Of a stretch of 64,000 nucleotides of DNA, positions 1,006 to 64,000 are shown in pieces. The stretch is taken from NCBI GenBank assembly GCA_043823745.1, contig JBDRAN010000016.1, positions 1,243 through 65,242 on the forward strand, written 5' to 3'. The notes under the pieces were generated by a model. It saw nothing but the letters and a program-made list of their open reading frames with translations. It made no database searches and was not told the DNA's origin. The translations under genes and the position numbers were made by a program. Positions within the stretch are counted from its first letter, which is position 1. Each line of letters starts with the position of its first letter. The DNA is from Candidatus Omnitrophota bacterium. Its GTDB lineage: Bacteria > Omnitrophota > Gorgyraeia > Duberdicusellales > 4484-171.

Positions 1006-1266
1006 ATGTGGAGCGTATATGTCATAGAAAGTTTAAGAAATAATAAAAAATACGTGGGTTTTACTTCCAAAGAATCCATCATCAGGCTAAATGAACATAA
1101 TAAGGGATCAAACAGTTGGACGCGACAAAATAGACCTTTTAAGCTTATTTACATCGAAAAGTATAGTCGCGAGCAAGAAGCTAGAGCGCGAGAAAAATTT
1201 TTAAAATCTGGTCAAGGGCGAAAATATTTGGGAAAAGTATTATGCCCCGGTAGCTCAATTGGATAG
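1006..1266 (+). CDS. GIY-YIG nuclease family protein
   Basis: 86-aa ORF with a GIY-YIG core (WSVYVIES…KYVGFT…RLNEHN… spacing typical of the URI/GIY-YIG domain). Its 3' end overlaps the first 23 nt of tRNA-Arg. Confidence 0.55.
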   Translation: MWSVYVIESLRNNKKYVGFTSKESIIRLNEHNKGSNSWTRQNRPFKLIYIEKYSREQEARAREKFLKSGQGRKYLGKVLCPGSSIG

Positions 1267-1317
1267 AGCATTTGGCTTCGGACCAAAGGGTTGCGGGTTC
1301 GATTCCTGCTCGGGGCG
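1244..1317 (+). tRNA. tRNA-Arg (anticodon TCG)
   Basis: Hand-folded cloverleaf: acceptor GCCCCGG/TCGGGGC (one G-U), D-arm GCTC-AATTGGATA-GAGC, anticodon stem TTTGG/CCAAA with loop CTTCGGA (anticodon UCG), T-arm GCGGG-TTCGATT-CCTGC, discriminator G. CCA is not encoded. Confidence 0.8.
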
Positions 1318-1350
1318 TTGGTTGTTTGCTAAAGAGATCTAAAATTTTTC

Positions 1351-1442
1351 GGAGAGGTGCGAGAGCGGTTTAATCGGTACGCCTGGAGAGCGTAAGACCG
1401 CCGAAAAGTGGTCCGAGAGTTCAAATCTCTCCCTCTCCGCCA
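1351..1442 (+). tRNA. tRNA-Ser (anticodon GGA)
   Basis: Acceptor GGAGAGG/CCTCTCC, 3-bp D-stem, anticodon stem TACGC/GCGTA with loop CTGGAGA (anticodon GGA), long variable arm (AGACCGCCGAAAAGTGGTCCG), T-arm GAGAG-TTCAAAT-CTCTC, discriminator G, encoded CCA. Confidence 0.85.
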
Positions 1443-3026: not shown

Positions 3027-3160
3027 GGCAATAAGCGCGTGTGATATTCAGTTTTCGTTAAAGATCATTAATGCTTCTTCGTGCATGTAATGGAGAAATC
3101 TTTCTTGAGCTCTTCGTTTTCCTACTAAATACTATTTATCCCTGCTATATATAATTAATA

Positions 3161-4399
3161 ATGACTCAACGAATAGTTATTACCGGTCTTGGCGTAGTAA
3201 GTCCCCTTGGCATAGGAAAAGAGGCATTCAGTAAAAACATATGCTCCGGCGTTTCGGGGGTGCGGCCTATCTCCTTGTTTGACACCGCTGATTTTGACGC
3301 TCAAACCGCGGCAGAGATAACGGATTTTGCTCCTGAGCAGTATGTGGGGAAAAAGGGGTTAAGGCTCCTTGATCGTAGCACAAAACTGACCCTTTGTGCT
3401 GCGCACCTTGCCTTGGATGATTCCGGTGTCAGCGTCACGGACGACAATACAAAGGAAATTGGTTTGGTTTTGGCTTCAACGTTTGGGAGCCTTTCCAGTA
3501 TCAGTAACTTTGATCGCGAGGCTCTCTTGGAAGGACCTCAATACGTTAATCCCGCACTTTTTTCAAATACCGTTATTAATTCGCCGGCCAGCCAAGCGTG
3601 TATTAAGTACGGTATTCGTGGTTTTAGCGCGACAATCTCGACCGGTTTTGGCGCAAGCCTTGATGCATTGCACTATGCCGCGTATTCTATACGAGCGGGG
3701 CGCGCCCGCATCGTGCTTGCCGGAGGAGTTGAGGAATTATGTATTCAGATTTTTTTGGGATTCTATAAGAGCGGGCTGCTTTCAATAAAATCTGAAAGAT
3801 TAACGGAAGAGATACGGCCGTTTGATCGAGAACGAAACGGGTTTGTGATAGGAGAAGGGGCGGTATTTTTAGTACTTGAAGAATTAAGGAGCGCCGAGGC
3901 TCGAGGAGCACGCATATACGCGGAGATGTCTGGTTATGGGAGCGGTTTTACGCCGCATTGCACGAGTCGTTATAGCCCGGGCCCTGAAGGATTAAAGCGT
4001 GCGATGCGCCAAGCTCTTGTCCACGGAAAACTTGTTCCGGGCGATATTGATTGCGTTTTTGCGGCGGCAAATGGAAGTCCAAAAGGAGATCGTTTTGAAG
4101 CGGAGGCGATACGCAATGTTTTTAGCAAGGAATCTTCTCGTCCGACAATAACCGCGGTAAAGTCAATGCTTGGAGAAACCTATAGCGCAGGGGGCTCTTT
4201 TGCTGCCGCGGCTGCGTTGTGTGCCCTGGAACGGCAGATGGTTCCGCCCACACTTCATCATGTAACGCCCGACCCCTCATGCACCGTTTCTTCGCTGGCA
4301 ACAGCGCCGCATGCGCACAGCTTGCGGCATGTCCTGGTCAATGCGGCCGGTCCCGGCGGGAACAATTCCAGCCTTGTGTTTTCGAAAGATTTCGGTTAA
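3161..4399 (+). CDS. beta-ketoacyl synthase-like protein lacking the Cys-His-His triad (chain-length-factor / KS-beta-like partner)
   Basis: Thiolase-fold KAS I/II-like sequence (MTQRIVITGLGVVSPLGIGKEAF…NAAGPGGNNSSLVF). The active-site Cys position reads S/T (FSATISTGFGAS), HGTGT is replaced by ANGSPKGD, and GHxxGAAG by GETYSAGG. Confidence 0.75.
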   Translation: MTQRIVITGLGVVSPLGIGKEAFSKNICSGVSGVRPISLFDTADFDAQTAAEITDFAPEQYVGKKGLRLLDRSTKLTLCAAHLALDDSGVSVTDDNTKEIGLVLASTFGSLSSISNFDREALLEGPQYVNPALFSNTVINSPASQACIKYGIRGFSATISTGFGASLDALHYAAYSIRAGRARIVLAGGVEELCIQIFLGFYKSGLLSIKSERLTEEIRPFDRERNGFVIGEGAVFLVLEELRSAEARGARIYAEMSGYGSGFTPHCTSRYSPGPEGLKRAMRQALVHGKLVPGDIDCVFAAANGSPKGDRFEAEAIRNVFSKESSRPTITAVKSMLGETYSAGGSFAAAAALCALERQMVPPTLHHVTPDPSCTVSSLATAPHAHSLRHVLVNAAGPGGNNSSLVFSKDFG

Positions 4400-18979: not shown

Positions 18980-19612
18980 ATGAAGTGGTTCATTTCACAG
19001 GATACCATCAAATCGTCTTTCCAAAAAACCCTGCAAGAGCATTGCGGCGAAAAGGTAACCCATTGTTATCAATGCGGCAAGTGTTCCGCGGGCTGCCCTA
19101 TTGCTTACCAAATGGATTATCTTCCCAACCAAATTATTCGAATGGTGCAGTTAGGCATGGAGAAGGAGGTTTTATCCAGTAACACCATGTGGCTGTGCGC
19201 TTCTTGTATTACCTGCACTTCCCGGTGCCCGAGGGAGATTGATATTGCTGAAATCATGGATTACCTACGACGGCGGGCATACAGAAAAGGTATCATGCCT
19301 AAAAGAGATATCGAGATACCTCTTTTTAACAAGATTTTTCTGAAAAACATCGAACTATTCGGAAGGCTTTTCGAGATGGGCCTTATTGGTATGTTTAATA
19401 CCTTAAGCGGAGAGTTTTTTAAAGATGTGCCTTTGGCGCCAACGATGTTTTGGAAGCGTAAAATCGGCGTCTTGCCGCATCGGATCAATAATATCAAAGA
19501 AGTAAAAGAAATTTTTAAGAAAGCGGGAAAACTGGGCCGCGCCCGCAGAGGAAGGTTAGTCTACCCTAACCTGATATTTTTTAATCTATTGCGAAAGTTA
19601 TGGAGAAAATAG
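18980..19612 (+). CDS. hdrC: heterodisulfide reductase subunit C-like protein (2x[4Fe-4S])
   Basis: Two ferredoxin-type motifs CYQCGKCSAGCP and CASCITCTSRCP with HdrC-like spacing. About 210 aa. Confidence 0.7.
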   Translation: MKWFISQDTIKSSFQKTLQEHCGEKVTHCYQCGKCSAGCPIAYQMDYLPNQIIRMVQLGMEKEVLSSNTMWLCASCITCTSRCPREIDIAEIMDYLRRRAYRKGIMPKRDIEIPLFNKIFLKNIELFGRLFEMGLIGMFNTLSGEFFKDVPLAPTMFWKRKIGVLPHRINNIKEVKEIFKKAGKLGRARRGRLVYPNLIFFNLLRKLWRK

Positions 19613-19742: not shown

Positions 19743-20618
19743 ATGAAATACGCCTATTATCCCGGGTGCTCGTTGCATTCAACTGCCAGAGAGTATGATA
19801 TGTCTGCCCGGGCGGTTGCTGAGGCTCTCGGAATAGAACTTTTGGAAATTCCTGATTGGATATGTTGTGGTGCCACTCCCGCGCACATCACGATGCATCT
19901 TTTGTCGATCGCTCTTCCGGTAAAGAATCTCCTAAAGGCAAAAGCTATGGGTTCTTATGAAGTAGCGACTTGCTGCGCTGCCTGTTTTAGCCGTTTGAAG
20001 ATTGCCAATGAATTTATGGAAAATAATCCTGAGCATCGTAAAAAAGTAAATGAGATAGTGGGCGAAGAATATAGGGGAGAGGTTAAGGTACGGCATTTTC
20101 TAGATATAATCGTCAATGAATTTGGATTAAAGAATCTCGAGCAGAAGGTAGTAGATAAGTTAAGCGGATTAAAAGTAGCCTGTTATTACGGTTGCCTTTT
20201 AACCCGTCCGCATGAAGTTACTCAGTTTGATGATCTGGAGGCTCCGCATTCGATGGATGATTTGATGAAAACAATCGGGGTAGAGCCTGTTTCCTGGCCG
20301 TATAAGACCGAATGCTGCGGAGCAAGTTTTTCCCTTACCCGGACCGATATTGTACTTAAGCTCTCGGGCGATATTTTGCAGATGGCGGCCGATGAAGGCG
20401 CAGAAGCTATTGTGGTAGCTTGCCCCTTGTGCCAATCAAATCTGGATTTAAGGCAAGCGGCGATTAATAAGAAGTTTAAGAAGAATTTTCAGATGCCGAT
20501 TTTTTATTTTACCCAATTAGTAGGCTTGAGTTTAGGGATCGATCCTAAAAAATTGGGGTTCAGTAGGCATATTGTTAATCCTATGCCGTTGTTGAGAGAA
20601 AAAATAATAAGTTATTGA
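19743..20618 (+). CDS. hdrB: heterodisulfide reductase subunit B-like protein (CCG domains)
   Basis: Starts MKYAYYPGCS as in HdrB. Two cysteine-rich CCG domains (WICCGATP…CAACF and CYYGCLL…ECCGASF…CPLCQ). The ORF-track start 19665 runs through an upstream microsatellite and is not preferred. Confidence 0.75.
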   Translation: MKYAYYPGCSLHSTAREYDMSARAVAEALGIELLEIPDWICCGATPAHITMHLLSIALPVKNLLKAKAMGSYEVATCCAACFSRLKIANEFMENNPEHRKKVNEIVGEEYRGEVKVRHFLDIIVNEFGLKNLEQKVVDKLSGLKVACYYGCLLTRPHEVTQFDDLEAPHSMDDLMKTIGVEPVSWPYKTECCGASFSLTRTDIVLKLSGDILQMAADEGAEAIVVACPLCQSNLDLRQAAINKKFKKNFQMPIFYFTQLVGLSLGIDPKKLGFSRHIVNPMPLLREKIISY

Positions 20619-60729: not shown

Positions 60730-62259
60730 ATGCAAACATTACTCTACTGTACTGCAAAGGCGGGATCGAAGGTTTCCATGCCTTTTCCTGTTTCTGTCGC
60801 GTCCAAGAAAAAGGCTATCGTGGCAAGCGATAGTGCGCTGGTCATCCTCAGCGAAGAATTCTTAAAGCGCAATAAAGGTTTGCGTGCAGCCCAATACCCC
60901 GGTAAGGTATTCCTTATTCATTGTGCCGCGGAAGGCAAAGGGAACTTAGCACTTCTTAAGATGCACGGATGTTTTGATTATTTTACCGATCATGATTCTG
61001 CAAAAATAATTCTTTTTAAGATTCAGCGTGCGCTTAACACCGTTGATTTTAAAGTTCGTATCGGGAACTTGGAGCGCGAGCTTTCCAGCCGTCATCGTAA
61101 AATAGAAAAAATCGTCTTAACGGACCCTCTTACCGGATGCTATAACTGGAGATATTTTCTTAGGCGCGCGCAACAGGAGCTAAGCCGTGCCCGCAGGCAT
61201 TTAAGCAAGCTTTCCTTTGTCGTTATCGATATCGATCATTTCCGTCAGATTAACGAGATGTATACCGTTAAATTCGCCGATCACGTCATCAAGGAGATGG
61301 CGGGGATTTTGCAGGATAACCTTCGTCAGGAAGATATCCTTGCCCGCTGGCGGGAGGATGAGTTTTTTATTATTTTGCCTTATCAGGGCCGCACGGAGGC
61401 GTATCGTGTAGGGACGCGAATCAGGAATAAGATTTCCGCATATCGGTTTCAGCACAAGAATATAACAGTACGCCTTAAAGTGAGCGTATGCATGGTTTCG
61501 TTCCCCGAGGATAGAATTTTTAGCGTTAAAGATGTCATCAATACTCTTGAGCGTTGCCTGATTGAAGTAAAACGCAGAGGGGGTGACAGCGCGATGCTTT
61601 ATTCTCAGCCGCAGCCGGTTTTGATCGAGAAAGGAGAGAAGAAAGAAACTGTCGGAGAACTTAAGAGTAAGATAGAGCGGCTCAATAGTCTTTTGAGCCG
61701 TGATATTTTGGAAATGATTTTTGGCTTCGCGCGCGCTATCGAAGCTAAAGATTCATACACGGGAAGGCATGTCGAAACAACATCCCTCTTGGCGGAGAAA
61801 ATAGCCAAAGAGTTGCAATTGCCAAGCCAGGAAGCGGAAAATGTCAAGCGCGCCGCGGTTTTGCATGACTTAGGGAAAGTTGGCATTGAGGAGAGCATTC
61901 TTTCTAAAAAAGGTCCGTTGACCTTTAAGGAAAAAGAGGTTATAAAGTCCCACCCGTGGATTGCGGCGGAGATTTTGCGGGAGATACACGGTCTTCGCGG
62001 CGCTATTCCCGCAATTTTGTATCATCACGAGCGCTATGATGGAAAGGGTTATCCGATTGGTCTTAAGGGCGAAGAGATCCCTTTAAGTGCGCGTATCGTG
62101 GCGATATCCGACGTATATCAAGCGCTCGTTAGTGATCGGCCGTATCGGAAGGCTTTCACCAAGCGGCAAGCTTTAAGTATTATTAAGAATGAGTCAGGGA
62201 AGCAATTTGATCCCAAGATCGTTAAGATATTTCTAAAGGTAATTAAGAAAATCGATTAG
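60730..62259 (+). CDS. degenerate-GGDEF domain plus HD-GYP phosphodiesterase domain protein
   Basis: GGDEF-fold region whose signature reads RWREDEFFIILP (REDEF instead of GG[D/E]EF). C-terminal HD-GYP (AAVLHDLGKVGI … HHERYDGKGYP). Confidence 0.75.
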   Translation: MQTLLYCTAKAGSKVSMPFPVSVASKKKAIVASDSALVILSEEFLKRNKGLRAAQYPGKVFLIHCAAEGKGNLALLKMHGCFDYFTDHDSAKIILFKIQRALNTVDFKVRIGNLERELSSRHRKIEKIVLTDPLTGCYNWRYFLRRAQQELSRARRHLSKLSFVVIDIDHFRQINEMYTVKFADHVIKEMAGILQDNLRQEDILARWREDEFFIILPYQGRTEAYRVGTRIRNKISAYRFQHKNITVRLKVSVCMVSFPEDRIFSVKDVINTLERCLIEVKRRGGDSAMLYSQPQPVLIEKGEKKETVGELKSKIERLNSLLSRDILEMIFGFARAIEAKDSYTGRHVETTSLLAEKIAKELQLPSQEAENVKRAAVLHDLGKVGIEESILSKKGPLTFKEKEVIKSHPWIAAEILREIHGLRGAIPAILYHHERYDGKGYPIGLKGEEIPLSARIVAISDVYQALVSDRPYRKAFTKRQALSIIKNESGKQFDPKIVKIFLKVIKKID

Positions 62260-62285: not shown

Positions 62286-62777
62286 ATGATTCAATACATT
62301 AAAGATTCGCAGAAAATTACCAAAGACCAATTGTATATGCAGGCTGCGCTAGCGGAAGCCGAAGCTGCAGCTTCTGAGGATGAGGTTCCGGTAGGAGCGG
62401 TTATCGTGCACCGAGAGGGGATTATTGCTCGCGCGCACAATCAAATAGAACGTCTTTGTGACCCCACCGCGCATGCAGAGATACTGGCAGTAACCCAGGC
62501 GGCGGCTTTCTTGAAAAAAAAATGGCTCGTTGATTGTGCCTTGTATGTTACGATTGAGCCTTGTTTAATGTGCGCGGGCGCGCTTGTCCTTGCGCGCTTA
62601 GGAAAGCTTGTGTTTGGGGCATCCGATTCTAAAACCGGCGCCTTCGGCTCAAAAGCTGATATCAATACGCTTGGCCTCAATCACCGTATTCGCGTACGCA
62701 AGGGCGTATTCGGCGAAGAATGCGGCCAGCTTATAAACGGCTTTTTCTTGGCCAAGCGTAAGTTAAAAAAAGTCTAG
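62286..62777 (+). CDS. tadA: tRNA-specific adenosine deaminase TadA
   Basis: CDA zinc motifs HAEILA and PCLMCAGA. About 150-163 aa. Confidence 0.85.
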   Translation: MIQYIKDSQKITKDQLYMQAALAEAEAAASEDEVPVGAVIVHREGIIARAHNQIERLCDPTAHAEILAVTQAAAFLKKKWLVDCALYVTIEPCLMCAGALVLARLGKLVFGASDSKTGAFGSKADINTLGLNHRIRVRKGVFGEECGQLINGFFLAKRKLKKV

Positions 62778-62984
62778 GAAGAATCTTTGCCTTTTTGAAG
62801 CGTTTTTTGATATAATCGGAAAATAATCAAGATAGCAATAATCTTTTGTGCTATGTGGCTCTCATCGCCGCGTCTATATACTCAAAGAATTCCTTCGGCA
62901 TTCTTTGAGAACGCGTCGATATCAGTGAATCTAAGTTTTTTGTACGCTTGCGAACGCAAACTTCAAAAAACTAAGAGTCACTAA

Positions 62985-63205
62985 ATTTTCTGAGAATGTG
63001 TTGAGATAACCAACCCTAAGACTTTTGTTCGCTGAGGCTCCAAAAGCCTAAGGGTTGGTAATCAGTTGTTCTTTCAAGAATTAGTTTATCCCTCAACACA
63101 TCTGAATACTCATAAAATTTATACTAAATTTTATGAGAATGTGTTGAGATAACCAACTCTAAGATTTTTGTTCGCTAAAGCTCCAAAAACCTAAGAGTTG
63201 GTAAG
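62985..63205. repeat. two roughly 78-bp direct repeats immediately upstream of tRNA-Ser(TGA)
   Basis: ttttctgagaatgtgttgagataaccaaccctaagacttttgttcgctgaggctccaaaagcctaagggttggtaa at 62985..63062, again at 63128..63205 (about 90% identical). Each carries an accaaccct…agggttggt inverted repeat. Confidence 0.8.
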
Positions 63206-63294
63206 GAGGAGTGGCAGAGTGGTCGAATGCGGCGGTCTTGAAAACCGTTAGACCCGCAAGGGTCTCGTGGGTTCAAATCCTACCTCCTCCGCCA
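63205..63294 (+). tRNA. tRNA-Ser (anticodon TGA)
   Basis: Acceptor GGAGGAG/CTCCTCC, anticodon stem CGGT/ACCG with loop CTTGAAA (anticodon UGA), long variable arm, T-arm GTGGG-TTCAAAT-CCTAC, discriminator G, encoded CCA. Confidence 0.85.
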
Positions 63295-64000
63295 TTGCAA
63301 CCAATTCGAACCTTTGCGCTCATCATCTAGCAGCGCGAGGGTTCGAATTTTGCTATGTGCGACACAATAAGGCTTAAAATTCTTCTCATCCCCGCTAAAA
63401 AGCTGATAAAAGTCGTTTTCTTTGGTTAAGATCGGCTCTAGACTTATGGGCCCCAGTAGCTCCTTAAGTGCCAGGGAAGAGGAGACGGTGTTCTTATTTA
63501 AGGTTTCTCGTAAGTTTTCCAGTCTGTGCTTGATCCATTCCTTAGGCGGCACTTTAAAGCTATTCTCCTTTTGAAACTCCAAAGATCCAACTTCCTGCTT
63601 TAGTTCATCGCTATTCTTTTCTGCCTCGGTTAAAGCCTCGGATACAGCCTTTGAAACATTACCTAACTTGATAAAGTTAAGGTAGTTTTGTATTTCTTGT
63701 TGGATCTTCTCATATTGAGCATTTTTTTTCTTGACCAGTTCGGGCACTTCGTTAAATCCTTCGGCTGCGATCTTTTCGACGTTCTTGTAGACATATTCGA
63801 GGTTTTCGGTAGTCAATAAATTCTCTTTGAGCTCTTTGATAATGATCTCTTCGATTCTTTTGCGGGGAATAAGGAGCGTGTTATTGCAGGTTTTTCTTCC
63901 GGCATTATAACAGCCATAGTAGCCGGTGCCTTTACCGCTCATAAGAACAATAGCTCCACCGCAGGTGTTACATCTCATCAAACCGGAAAGTAAGTGATTG
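63280..64000 (-). CDS. large serine recombinase, C-terminal part (recombinase zinc-ribbon + coiled-coil); 5' end beyond window
   Basis: …CNTCGGAIVLMSGKGTGYYGCYNAGRKTCNNTLLIPRKRIEEII… is the zinc beta-ribbon of large serine recombinases, followed by a coiled-coil. The reading frame is open to the window edge. The stop at 63280 overlaps the 3' end of tRNA-Ser by about 15 nt. Confidence 0.7.
   Translation of the reverse strand, partial: NHLLSGLMRCNTCGGAIVLMSGKGTGYYGCYNAGRKTCNNTLLIPRKRIEEIIIKELKENLLTTENLEYVYKNVEKIAAEGFNEVPELVKKKNAQYEKIQQEIQNYLNFIKLGNVSKAVSEALTEAEKNSDELKQEVGSLEFQKENSFKVPPKEWIKHRLENLRETLNKNTVSSSLALKELLGPISLEPILTKENDFYQLFSGDEKNFKPYCVAHSKIRTLALLDDERKGSNWLQWRRR

What the first reader, a model, noticed from the sequence alone, without database searches (positions are those of the whole stretch)
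63205..64000. Large serine recombinase ending inside tRNA-Ser(TGA): boundary of an integrated element running off the window
The C-terminal zinc-ribbon and coiled-coil part of a large serine recombinase lies on the minus strand. Its stop codon is about 15 nt inside the 3' end of tRNA-Ser(TGA). A recombinase immediately adjacent to or overlapping a tRNA 3' end is the classic signature of a prophage or integrative element inserted at that tRNA. The element body would lie beyond nt 64000. Two 78-bp direct repeats (62985..63205) immediately upstream of the tRNA add to the unusual architecture of this junction.
Basis: partly seen in the sequence, partly recalled or inferred. Interest (0 to 1): 0.55.

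Follow-up and report, generated by a model that had tools for sequence, protein, structure and literature searches.

The report
Serine-recombinase island junction at tRNA-Ser
The window ends on the left junction of a mobile DNA island inserted at the very 3' tip of a serine tRNA gene by a large serine recombinase; this uncharacterised recombinase family uses any serine tRNA as its landing site and carries anti-phage defence genes in related genomes.

Summary
tRNA-Ser(TGA) lies at 63205-63294 (+). A minus-strand ORF with a recombinase zinc-ribbon domain runs off the window and stops at 63280-63282, 15 nt inside the tRNA. Two 82-nt direct repeats (91% identical) precede the tRNA.

Relatives of this recombinase (58-84% identical) were found in about 30 Omnitrophota, Planctomycetota and Chlamydiales genomes. 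They sit in the same position against tRNA-Ser genes of all four anticodons found (TGA, GCT, GGA, CGA), with different host neighbours and variable defence cargo.

One relative shows both ends of an 18.2-kb island between tRNA-Ser and dnaX. Six unoccupied sites have a gap of only 7-135 nt there.

The site geometry fits serine integrases. A TTCGAA motif lies 16 nt from the centre on the element arm, and the tRNA T-loop lies 11 nt away. The recombinase gene has no stop codon of its own. In the excised form it would continue into a conserved helix-turn-helix (HTH) tail encoded at the island's far end.

The island also supplies a terminator hairpin for the tRNA. The upstream repeats are host-side and unrelated. 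The island body beyond 64000 could not be retrieved.

The parts
63205..63294 (+). tRNA-Ser(TGA). It is intact, with a full 7-bp acceptor stem and an encoded CCA. The part up to about nt 63288 is host DNA; the last few bases are supplied by, or shared with, the element.
   Evidence: ARAGORN. Rfam RF00005 58.2 bits with all stems paired.
63280..64000 (-). 3' part of a large serine recombinase gene (zinc-ribbon domain, coiled-coil region, C-terminal region). The 5' part lies beyond the window. The last three sense codons (R-R-R) and the TAG stop at 63280-63282 are encoded by tRNA sequence.
   Evidence: ORF and translation. PF13408. 137 homologues. Aligns in one frame without stops to residues 322-566 of a full-length relative at 82% identity.
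63272..63310 (.). attL, the hybrid attachment site. The tRNA T-loop TTCAAA (63272-63277) is followed by 11 nt up to the inferred centre at 63288|63289. Then come 16 nt and the element-arm TTCGAA (63305-63310). The core shared with attP-type junctions is TCCG(CCA), 63288-63294.
   Evidence: Read from the sequence. Junction alignment of 28 loci. Motif spacing 27 in 27/27 attL against 32 in 3 attP-like junctions. The 5-bp rule for serine integrases is from PMC3783163.
63303..63353 (+). Element-encoded hairpin (arms 63303-63320 and 63332-63349) followed by TTTT, read in the tRNA's direction. It is a probable intrinsic terminator for the tRNA and lies inside the recombinase's C-terminal coding region.
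   Evidence: Inverted repeat I4. Fold -31.6 kcal/mol, z -6.4. Conserved in 27 loci: 80% of cells paired, 9 pairs with double changes, 0/500 shuffles reach the observed value. The simple terminator scan did not flag it because the loop exceeds its 8-nt limit.
62980..63204 (+). Two 82-nt direct repeats (62980-63061 and 63123-63204). Each holds a 19-23 bp hairpin. They lie in the leader of the tRNA on the host side and are not part of the element.
   Evidence: z -2.8 and -3.2. No other copy in the window or in any fetched locus. Not related to the att model (11 bits, E 1.6). No Rfam family.
62286..62777 (+). tadA (tRNA adenosine deaminase), the host flank. tadA followed by tRNA-Ser is a conserved host arrangement.
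   Evidence: Pfam MafB19-deam and dCMP_cyt_deam_1. 41 of 80 metagenomic tadA loci have a tRNA-Ser within 1.5 kb downstream.

Best explanation
Nt 63272-64000 is the attL end of a genomic island integrated by a large serine recombinase (LSR) at the extreme 3' end of tRNA-Ser(TGA).

Shown:
- The recombinase gene converges on the tRNA and its reading frame runs into it.
- The family always occupies this position, at any tRNA-Ser isoacceptor.
- Empty sites and a complete two-ended island exist in relatives.

Inferred mechanism:
- The recombinase binds an attP that lies in the last codons of its own gene. The two arms each carry TTCGAA 16 nt from the centre.
- It binds an attB whose one good half-site is the tRNA T-loop (TTCGAA/TTCAAA), 11 nt from the centre.
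- It exchanges strands at or next to T70-C71 of the tRNA, inside a shared TCCG core.

Consequences of integration:
- It rebuilds the tRNA's last bases from element DNA.
- It places an element-encoded terminator hairpin behind the tRNA.
- It cuts the recombinase ORF off from a conserved helix-turn-helix tail of about 70 aa, encoded at the other end of the element. The integrated gene therefore ends after a few tRNA-encoded codons (R-R-R-stop here).

By analogy with relatives, the body beyond nt 64000 should hold a small ORF overlapping the recombinase start (a candidate directionality factor), a divergent HTH_3 regulator, and roughly 4-18 kb of variable anti-phage defence genes.
For: Family and position:
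- Zn-ribbon recombinase domain in the window fragment. Full-length relatives have Resolvase + Recombinase + Zn_ribbon domains and conserved R8/S10.
- The recombinase end overlaps a tRNA-Ser 3' end. Counting the species-level loci with an ARAGORN-called tRNA-Ser at the junction, plus this window, the split is TGA 7, GCT 7, GGA 5, CGA 5. The element side of the junction is conserved up to ...ATGG/CGGAG, after which the sequence is tRNA-specific.

Site geometry:
- TTCGAA motif spacing is 27 in 27/27 attL and 32 in attP-like junctions L010, L023 and L032. This matches the 5-bp ZD-motif shift between attP and attB (PMC3783163).

Complete island in a relative (L120):
- attL is centred at 1185|1186. 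attR is GGTTCGAATTGGTTGCAGACGGGT|CCGAAG at 19403-19432. The island is 18,241 bp and lies between tRNA-Ser(GCT) and dnaX.
- Six empty tadA-tRNA-Ser-dnaX sites have gaps of 7-135 nt.

Mobility and cargo:
- Recombinase fragment 79-84% identical where neighbouring TadA is 57-63% identical.
- Defence cargo: type I and type III R-M, Hachiman, Druantia DruE, Shango SngA/B, Mokosh/Hhe-like proteins, AbiE, TIR.

Hairpin and tail:
- Hairpin conserved with covariation.
- ORFs have no stop of their own; the tails are host-coded.
- The reconstructed circular junction continues in frame into ...WR|TRLQPIRTA...LYQKLAKK..EL.LLGMS.RAIAKSL.... The same tail follows the junctions in L010 and L032.
- In database proteins found with the tail query, my pattern classification gave about 20 ORFs that span the junction and about 75 with unrelated leaders that converge at (W)R-TRLQPIRT.
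Against: - The island body, the catalytic domain and the attR of this window's copy are outside the window. They could not be retrieved: an exact 40-mer found no metagenome contig, and the only other contig of this organism ends just after tadA. The copy here may therefore be truncated or inactive.
- About 11 of about 25 assessable relatives carry a nonsense mutation, frameshifts or truncations.
- No full-length recombinase-plus-tail ORF was found among the 120 best tail hits. All junction-spanning ORFs are N-terminally short remnants or contig-cut.
- The exact crossover dinucleotide is inferred from symmetry only. L023's junction has G|T instead of G|A at the inferred centre.
- The attB half-site on the non-tRNA side shows no conserved motif.
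- No activity was tested.
Confidence: 0.85

Rival explanations
1. It is the integrase end of a temperate phage (prophage) inserted at the tRNA. Capsid, tail and lysis genes would lie beyond the window.
For: Recombinase next to a tRNA 3' end. PHROGs assigns the full-length relative to phrog_95 'integrase' (E 5e-88). Defence genes often sit next to prophage integrases (my own knowledge).
Against: No phage structural, packaging or lysis domain appears in 9-18 kb of element DNA in any relative, including the complete 18.2-kb island. There is no relative in IMG/VR viral contigs. The closest cultured-phage recombinases are 28% identical or less.
Confidence: 0.06
2. It is a decayed remnant: an immobile, truncated or frameshifted recombinase left at the tRNA after an old integration.
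For: Many relatives are degraded. There is an in-frame TGA replacing a conserved Trp in the L002 group (31 contigs). Frameshifts occur in L010, L013, L019, L031-L035 and L039, and a C-terminal deletion in L028. C-terminal recombinase stubs fused to tails are common.
Against: The 239 visible codons are uninterrupted and 82-84% identical to intact relatives. This rival concerns present activity only. It does not change what the junction is.
Confidence: 0.3
3. The recombinase is a conserved resident (domesticated) gene that belongs next to tRNA-Ser in this lineage, not a mobile element.
For: The arrangement is found in many Omnitrophota genomes.
Against: The gene sits at four different tRNA-Ser isoacceptors and in different neighbourhoods, and it is absent from most tadA-tRNA-Ser sites. 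It is always accompanied by variable cargo. It is more conserved than the neighbouring housekeeping gene. Both att sites were identified in L120.
Confidence: 0.02

Closest known systems
Phage serine integrases with solved or modelled att recognition (Listeria A118/LI integrase, Bxb1, phiC31, TP901-1)
   Same: Domain order Resolvase-Recombinase-Zn ribbon with a coiled-coil region. Pseudo-palindromic attP. The distal recognition motif is 5 bp closer to the centre in the bacterial half-site than in the element half-site (one search compared with PMC3783163). The shared core is very short.
   Different: Only the catalytic domain is detectably similar to any solved structure (TP901-1 integrase 3bvp, E 6e-13). 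Identity to cultured-phage recombinases is 28% or less. The target is a tRNA gene, not a protein-coding gene. attP lies inside the recombinase's own ORF. There is an extra C-terminal HTH tail. The elements seen are not phages.
Tyrosine-integrase genomic islands in tRNA/tmRNA genes (Islander-type islands, P4-like elements)
   Same: Integration at the 3' end of a tRNA gene, with the tRNA end regenerated from element DNA. The integrase gene abuts the tRNA. Cargo is variable and often defensive. Tandem remnants occur.
   Different: The enzyme family is different. [quoted passage not shown] Only 4-7 nt of the tRNA is duplicated here, instead of tens of nt. One family uses all tRNA-Ser isoacceptors instead of one tRNA.
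SCCmec-type cassettes moved by CcrAB/CcrC large serine recombinases
   Same: Non-phage cargo islands integrated by an LSR at the 3' end of a conserved housekeeping gene. They have a tendency to form composite or tandem arrays with recombinase-less neighbours (compare L032, L010, L015, L023).
   Different: The target is rlmH, a protein-coding gene, and the cargo is resistance genes. The att site is not inside the recombinase ORF. This comparison rests on my own knowledge and on PMC10581047; it was not tested here.
SSV1-type archaeal tyrosine integrases and integration-dependent immunity of mycobacteriophages (attP inside a coding gene)
   Same: The attachment site lies within an element gene, so integration changes the product's C-terminus.
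   Different: Those systems use tyrosine recombinases. In SSV1 the integrase gene is split into two parts, and in the mycobacteriophages the affected gene is the repressor. Here only a tail of about 70 aa of a serine recombinase is detached. The only natural example found in the searchable literature was the archaeal tyrosine case (PMC8371274). The mycobacteriophage case is from my own knowledge.

Membership tests
Large serine recombinase (serine integrase) | N-terminal resolvase-type catalytic domain with the serine nucleophile | not testable with these tools
   This part of the window's gene lies beyond nt 64000. In 15 full-length relatives the domain is present (PF00239, E 2.7e-29) with conserved R8, S10 and the DDLSRLSR motif.
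Large serine recombinase (serine integrase) | Recombinase domain (PF07508) followed by a zinc beta-ribbon domain (PF13408) | tested here: met
   PF13408 is present in the window fragment (E 2.6e-10, above the curated cut-off). PF07508 is seen only in relatives because it lies outside the window.
Large serine recombinase (serine integrase) | Coiled-coil motif embedded in or after the zinc-ribbon domain | tested here: inconclusive
   There are only weak coiled-coil family matches in relatives (PF08826, E 5e-4, below cut-off). No structure was predicted.
Large serine recombinase (serine integrase) | att sites with inverted half-sites, and a distal (ZD) motif 5 bp closer to the centre in attB than in attP | tested here: met
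   TTCGAA-to-TTCGAA spacing is 27 (16+11) in 27/27 attL and 32 (16+16) in 3 attP-like junctions. The rule is taken from PMC3783163.
Large serine recombinase (serine integrase) | Demonstrated recombination with a 2-bp staggered crossover | not testable with these tools
   Needs an experiment. The sequence shows only a shared 4-7 nt core, TCCG(CCA).
Integrated genomic island bounded by attL and attR | A second junction (attR) at the far end, and an empty site in relatives | tested here: inconclusive
   For this window the far end is outside the sequence and could not be fetched. For relative L120 both ends were found, with six empty tadA-tRNA-Ser-dnaX sites.
Prophage | Phage structural, packaging or lysis genes inside the element | tested here: not met
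   None were found in the complete 18.2-kb relative or in 9-10 kb of 12 other relatives. There are no IMG/VR relatives. This was not testable for the window's own copy.
Tyrosine-integrase tRNA island (Islander type) | Tyrosine recombinase (Phage_integrase domain) as the integrase | tested here: not met
   The adjacent gene is a serine recombinase.
Defence island / defence-carrying integrative element | Cargo made of recognised anti-phage systems | tested here: inconclusive
   Met in relatives: PADLOC matches to DruE, HamA/HamB, SngA/SngB and type III MTase, and Pfam matches to type I R-M, AbiEii and TIR_2. The window's own cargo is unseen.

The most novel reading that the evidence does not exclude
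This is the visible end of an undescribed, widespread clade of large serine recombinases found in Omnitrophota, Planctomycetota and Chlamydiales. More distant members at 22-27% identity show the same layout.

The clade uses the T-arm and acceptor 3' end common to all tRNA-Ser isoacceptors as its bacterial attachment half-site. In one locus it may also use an alanine-type tRNA or tmRNA end.

The recombinase gene spans attP. Integration therefore detaches a conserved C-terminal helix-turn-helix domain and leaves a truncated enzyme. This would be a built-in, integration-dependent switch of recombinase form that could help set directionality. It occurs in elements that assemble multi-system defence islands by tandem accretion.
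Probability: 0.45. Interest if true: 0.75.

Novelty: new variant of a known kind. Interest (0 to 1): 0.62.

Why it matters
Serine integrases are the main enzymes used for inserting large DNA, but each needs its own landing site to be present. They are generally held not to use tRNA genes.

A family whose natural site is the near-universal 3' end of serine tRNAs would supply native landing pads in many uncultured bacteria. It tolerates four isoacceptors and phylum-level host differences, and it repairs the tRNA and its terminator on insertion. It would also be a natural case study of half-site recognition.

The gene-spans-attP layout suggests a new way for a serine integrase to differ between its free and integrated states.

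The family also appears to be a main vehicle for defence systems in Omnitrophota, a phylum whose mobile elements are almost undescribed.

Tried and rejected
1. Retrieving the window's own continuation failed. An exact 40-mer from 63941-63980 gave no metagenome contig. The only contig carrying the identical TadA ends 48 nt after tadA. The best recombinase relatives are 84% identical.

2. The first homologue list showed only proteins of 405 aa or less, with no Resolvase domain. This briefly suggested a family without a catalytic domain. I rejected that: the short proteins are split genes (nonsense or frameshift) or contig-cut, and intact genes of about 565 codons exist.

3. The in-frame TGA in the L002 group was considered as possible recoding. 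I rejected that: it replaces a conserved TGG (Trp), and other members have no such stop.

4. Searching 9-10 kb upstream of the Omnitrophota recombinases for the far-end arm found nothing. The reason is that the islands are longer. Stepping out through a cargo protein found attR 18.2 kb away.

5. I considered that the upstream 82-nt repeats might be old att or terminator remnants, because of a loose ACCAA..TC.AA resemblance. I rejected that: 11 bits, E 1.6 with the junction model, and no copies elsewhere.

6. Rfam gave nothing for the tRNA leader region.

7. The small ORF upstream of the recombinase has no Pfam or PHROGs match. Its role as a directionality factor is only a guess.

8. Pfam gives only sub-threshold HTH matches for the tail. 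Its HTH nature rests on those matches, on source annotations and on the sequence pattern.

Full report
**What is in the window**

ARAGORN and Rfam both call an intact tRNA-Ser(TGA) at 63205-63294 on the + strand. On the minus strand an ORF is open from the window edge to a TAG at 63280-63282, 15 nt inside the tRNA's 3' end. Its first 58 visible residues match the recombinase zinc-ribbon domain PF13408 above the curated threshold.

Upstream lie a GGDEF-HD protein gene (60730-62259) and tadA (62286-62777). Then comes a 427-nt spacer holding a promoter-like site (62787-62816), several hairpins, and two 82-nt direct repeats (62980-63061 and 63123-63204, 91% identical). The repeats are 82 nt rather than 78 nt.

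**The recombinase is a complete large serine recombinase in relatives**

A protein search returned 137 relatives, none longer than 405 aa and none with a catalytic domain. The DNA around them explains why. In the closest public group (L002-L009) the gene is split by one in-frame TGA at a conserved Trp codon. In the Parachlamydiales locus L010 it is frameshifted.

A scan of one genome per species found 29 further loci. In 14 of them the gene is one uninterrupted frame of about 565 codons with Resolvase, Recombinase and Zn-ribbon domains and conserved R8/S10.

Only the catalytic domain resembles any solved structure (TP901-1 integrase, E 6e-13). Cultured phages and plasmids hold nothing closer than 28% and 34% identity.

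**Always at a tRNA-Ser, but any tRNA-Ser**

In every locus where the junction is present, the ORF's end overlaps the 3' end of a convergent tRNA-Ser. Among the loci with an ARAGORN-called tRNA-Ser there, counting this window, the anticodon is TGA in 7, GCT in 7, GGA in 5 and CGA in 5. Host neighbours differ. Some loci have the SerRS/RtcB neighbourhood and others have tadA.

Within one syntenic neighbourhood (SerRS-tRNA-Ser TGA-CGA-GGA), different genomes have the element at different members of the tRNA cluster, which leaves the others as empty sites.

Three results together exclude a resident gene and show mobility:
- The window's recombinase fragment is 79-84% identical to relatives in genomes whose TadA is only 57-63% identical.
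- Of 80 metagenomic tadA loci, 41 have a tRNA-Ser within 1.5 kb downstream (38 with it as the first tRNA), yet only two carry a recombinase there.
- Those two recombinases are only 22-27% identical to this family, but their frames also run into the tRNA over the same TGG-CGG codons.

**Anatomy of the attachment sites**

Aligned junctions show the element side conserved up to ...GGTTCGAATTGGTATCAATGG/CGGAG. After that the sequence follows the particular tRNA. Where the tRNA gene lacks an encoded CCA, the three bases after the discriminator vary (AAA, TAT, GTA, AAG), but CGGAG stays.

Three junctions between tandem elements have the attP form. They are L010 3256-3303, L023 10686-10735 and L032 3730-3777. 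In each, two inverted arms carry TTCGAA or TTCGTA, separated by 32 nt (16+16). In all 27 attL sites the element-arm motif and the tRNA T-loop (TTCGAA/TTCAAA on the tRNA strand) are 27 nt apart (16+11).

Rutherford et al. showed that the zinc-ribbon-domain (ZD) motif of a serine integrase site lies 5 bp closer to the centre in attB than in attP (PMC3783163). The numbers here fit that rule exactly. I therefore infer that the T-loop serves as the ZD motif of the bacterial half-site.

The centre then falls between tRNA positions 70 and 71, which is 63288|63289 in the window. This is inside the core shared by all site types, TCCG, extended to TCCGCCA when CCA is encoded. The side of attB beyond the tRNA shows no conserved motif. 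The exact crossover is an inference.

**A complete island and empty sites**

The far end was not within 9-10 kb of any Omnitrophota recombinase. Stepping outward through a cargo protein gave locus L120, which is the same contig as L012.

Its layout is as follows:
- tadA
- tRNA-Ser(GCT) at 1100-1191
- recombinase
- HTH_3 regulator
- a 1624-aa helicase-nuclease
- a DUF2779 protein
- two proteins with no Pfam domain
- AbiEii plus an HTH_17 protein
- an AAA_15/21 ATPase pair
- a TIR protein
- attR, GGTTCGAATTGGTTGCAGACGGGT|CCGAAG, at 19403-19432
- dnaX at 19811

The island is 18,241 bp. In six other loci tadA, tRNA-Ser and dnaX are contiguous, with only 7-135 nt between the tRNA and dnaX. The window holds no dnaX, so it may lie beyond the island.

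In Chlamydiales the elements are smaller. L010 is about 7.9 kb and is bounded by an older recombinase stub. L032 is about 3.9 kb and is preceded by three further far-end-type arms that delimit recombinase-less cassettes.

**Cargo**

Next to the recombinase there is always a small ORF with no known domain that overlaps its start, and a divergent HTH_3 gene.

Beyond these the content varies and is defensive:
- type I R-M with RhuM (L019)
- type III R-M (L011, L025)
- Hachiman HamA/HamB (L023)
- Druantia DruE (L020)
- Shango SngA/SngB (L037)
- Mokosh/Hhe-like helicase-nucleases (L012, L027)
- an Mrr-helicase with an AAA_15/21 ATPase (L010)
- SMODS/SLATT proteins, a reverse transcriptase and an E2/ubiquitin-like set further out

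No phage structural gene was seen, and IMG/VR holds no relative. The prophage reading is therefore unlikely.

**Two further properties**

First, directly after the tRNA the element carries an 18-19 bp hairpin followed by a T-run (window 63303-63353). Its fold is -31.6 kcal/mol with z -6.4. Across 27 loci 80% of cells pair, 9 pairs change on both sides, and no shuffle of 500 reaches the observed value. One pair shows five pair types. The hairpin lies inside the recombinase's coding sequence, which also constrains it. The covariation supports a structural role. The likeliest role is to terminate tRNA transcription before it runs antisense into the recombinase gene, replacing the displaced native terminator.

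Second, the recombinase has no stop codon of its own. After ...GSNW(Y/L)(Q/H)W the frame reads tRNA sequence, and the host-coded tails run from 3 to more than 100 residues.

Joining the two ends of the L120 island in silico continues the frame for 75 more codons: WR|TRLQPIRTAGEIQVKIVIHSLQRTPLYQKLAKKVAELSLLGMSLRAIAKSLKTSKKTV.... The same tail follows the attP-like junctions of L010 and L032.

A database search with this junction found 120 proteins. By my pattern classification of the 115 new ones, about 20 carry the recombinase C-terminus and the tail in one frame. About 75 carry the tail behind unrelated leaders that converge at (W)R-TRLQPIRT, which is the breakpoint predicted from the DNA. 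Pfam matches of the tail to HTH families are below threshold. Some sources annotate these proteins as resolvase-type or NarL-type HTH.

Integration thus separates the recombinase from a conserved C-terminal tail that probably binds DNA. That this acts as a switch between free and integrated forms is my hypothesis. No full-length recombinase-plus-tail gene was among the hits, and the junction-spanning ORFs examined are stubs in tandem arrays.

**The upstream repeats**

The two 82-nt units occur nowhere else in the window or in any fetched locus. They match no Rfam family and are not related to the junction model.

Each folds into a long hairpin. Four of the seven differences between the copies form two compensatory pairs. 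A third hairpin of similar core lies at 62924-62982.

They sit in the presumed tRNA leader on the host side. Their function is unknown. The only other public contig of this organism breaks just before them.

**Comparison with the literature**

The searchable literature has no paper that mentions both Omnitrophota and serine recombinases. [quoted passage not shown] A 2023 survey found tRNA insertions dominated by tyrosine integrases (PMC10484663). The only natural case of attP within the integrase gene that was retrieved concerns archaeal tyrosine recombinases (PMC8371274). I cannot exclude coverage in papers outside the library.

**Verdict**

The window ends on the attL junction of a serine-recombinase island at tRNA-Ser(TGA).

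It works like a serine integrase system. On the features testable here it qualifies as a member of that family. Its target, its gene-spans-attP layout and its cargo make it a new variant.

The main limit is that this copy's body, catalytic domain and far end are outside the window.

Noticed in passing
window 62778-63204: The 427-nt tadA-tRNA spacer holds a promoter-like site (62787-62816) and three related hairpins: 62924-62982, 63005-63063 and 63152-63202, with core CTAAGnTTTTTG...CAAAAnCTAAGnG. Two of them lie in 82-nt direct repeats with two compensatory pair changes. There is no Rfam match and no copy elsewhere. The function is unknown.
   Followed up: partly
L001 (GCA_018827245.1 contig JAHJZK010000194.1), end at window coordinate about 62825: The only other public contig carrying the identical TadA stops 48 nt after tadA, just before the hairpin/repeat region. 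This is probably an assembly break caused by the repeats or by the variable island.
   Followed up: no
L002-L009, L018 (e.g. L002 3246-3248): In this Omnitrophota population (31 contigs from many samples) the recombinase carries a single in-frame TGA where all relatives have Trp (TGG). It is either a fixed nonsense mutation or possibly read-through.
   Followed up: partly
L032 1489, 3764, 5229, 6785 (Chlamydiales MAG): Four far-end-type arms (CTTCGGACGCGGTyGCAACCAATTCGCAC) lie in series upstream of one frameshifted recombinase. They delimit 1.5-2.3 kb recombinase-less cassettes, an integron-like or accretion array. The tRNA at this junction is truncated.
   Followed up: partly
L027 10686-10775 (Candidatus Gygaella obscura): Here the recombinase abuts a 3' end reading ...GGGGTTCGATTCCCCGCACCTCCACCA, with discriminator A and an alanine/tmRNA-like acceptor, not tRNA-Ser. 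The contig ends before the gene can be identified.
   Followed up: no
L040 6500-8191 and L045 1790-2531: Recombinases only 22-27% identical to this family also end inside tRNA-Ser(GCT) next to tadA, with the frame reading W-R over TGGCGG and a hairpin behind the tRNA. The layout is therefore much older and broader than the family studied.
   Followed up: partly
L120 10001-11344 (P0121): This 447-aa island protein with no Pfam domain has more than 3,500 relatives at 50-90% identity across Omnitrophota, Bacteroidota and Melioribacteraceae, mostly on short contigs. It is a very widespread uncharacterised cargo or mobile gene.
   Followed up: no
L015 6522-6620; L031 1918-2173; L021 975-1146: These are irregular junctions. 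L015 has a decayed attP-like joint followed 46 nt later by a second element arm and the tRNA. L031 has a 35-nt tRNA 3' fragment about 130 nt before the real tRNA. L021 has an insertion of about 80 nt of GGGACAGTCCC repeats inside the hairpin.
   Followed up: no
L002 6784-9789: The host-side RtcB RNA ligase gene (1001 aa) carries an intein (Pfam Intein_splicing between two RtcB segments).
   Followed up: no
L081 about 3107-3260: An unoccupied-looking tRNA-Ser(GCT) is followed about 110 nt later by a duplicated tRNA 3' fragment (GAATCCCGACCTCTCCG). This is the signature of a different, probably tyrosine-integrase, element or of its scar.
   Followed up: no
window 1243-1442: tRNA-Arg(TCG) and tRNA-Ser(GGA) are adjacent. 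This tRNA-Ser ends ...CTCTCCGCCA and is unoccupied, so it is a potential second landing site for the same recombinase family in this genome.
   Followed up: partly
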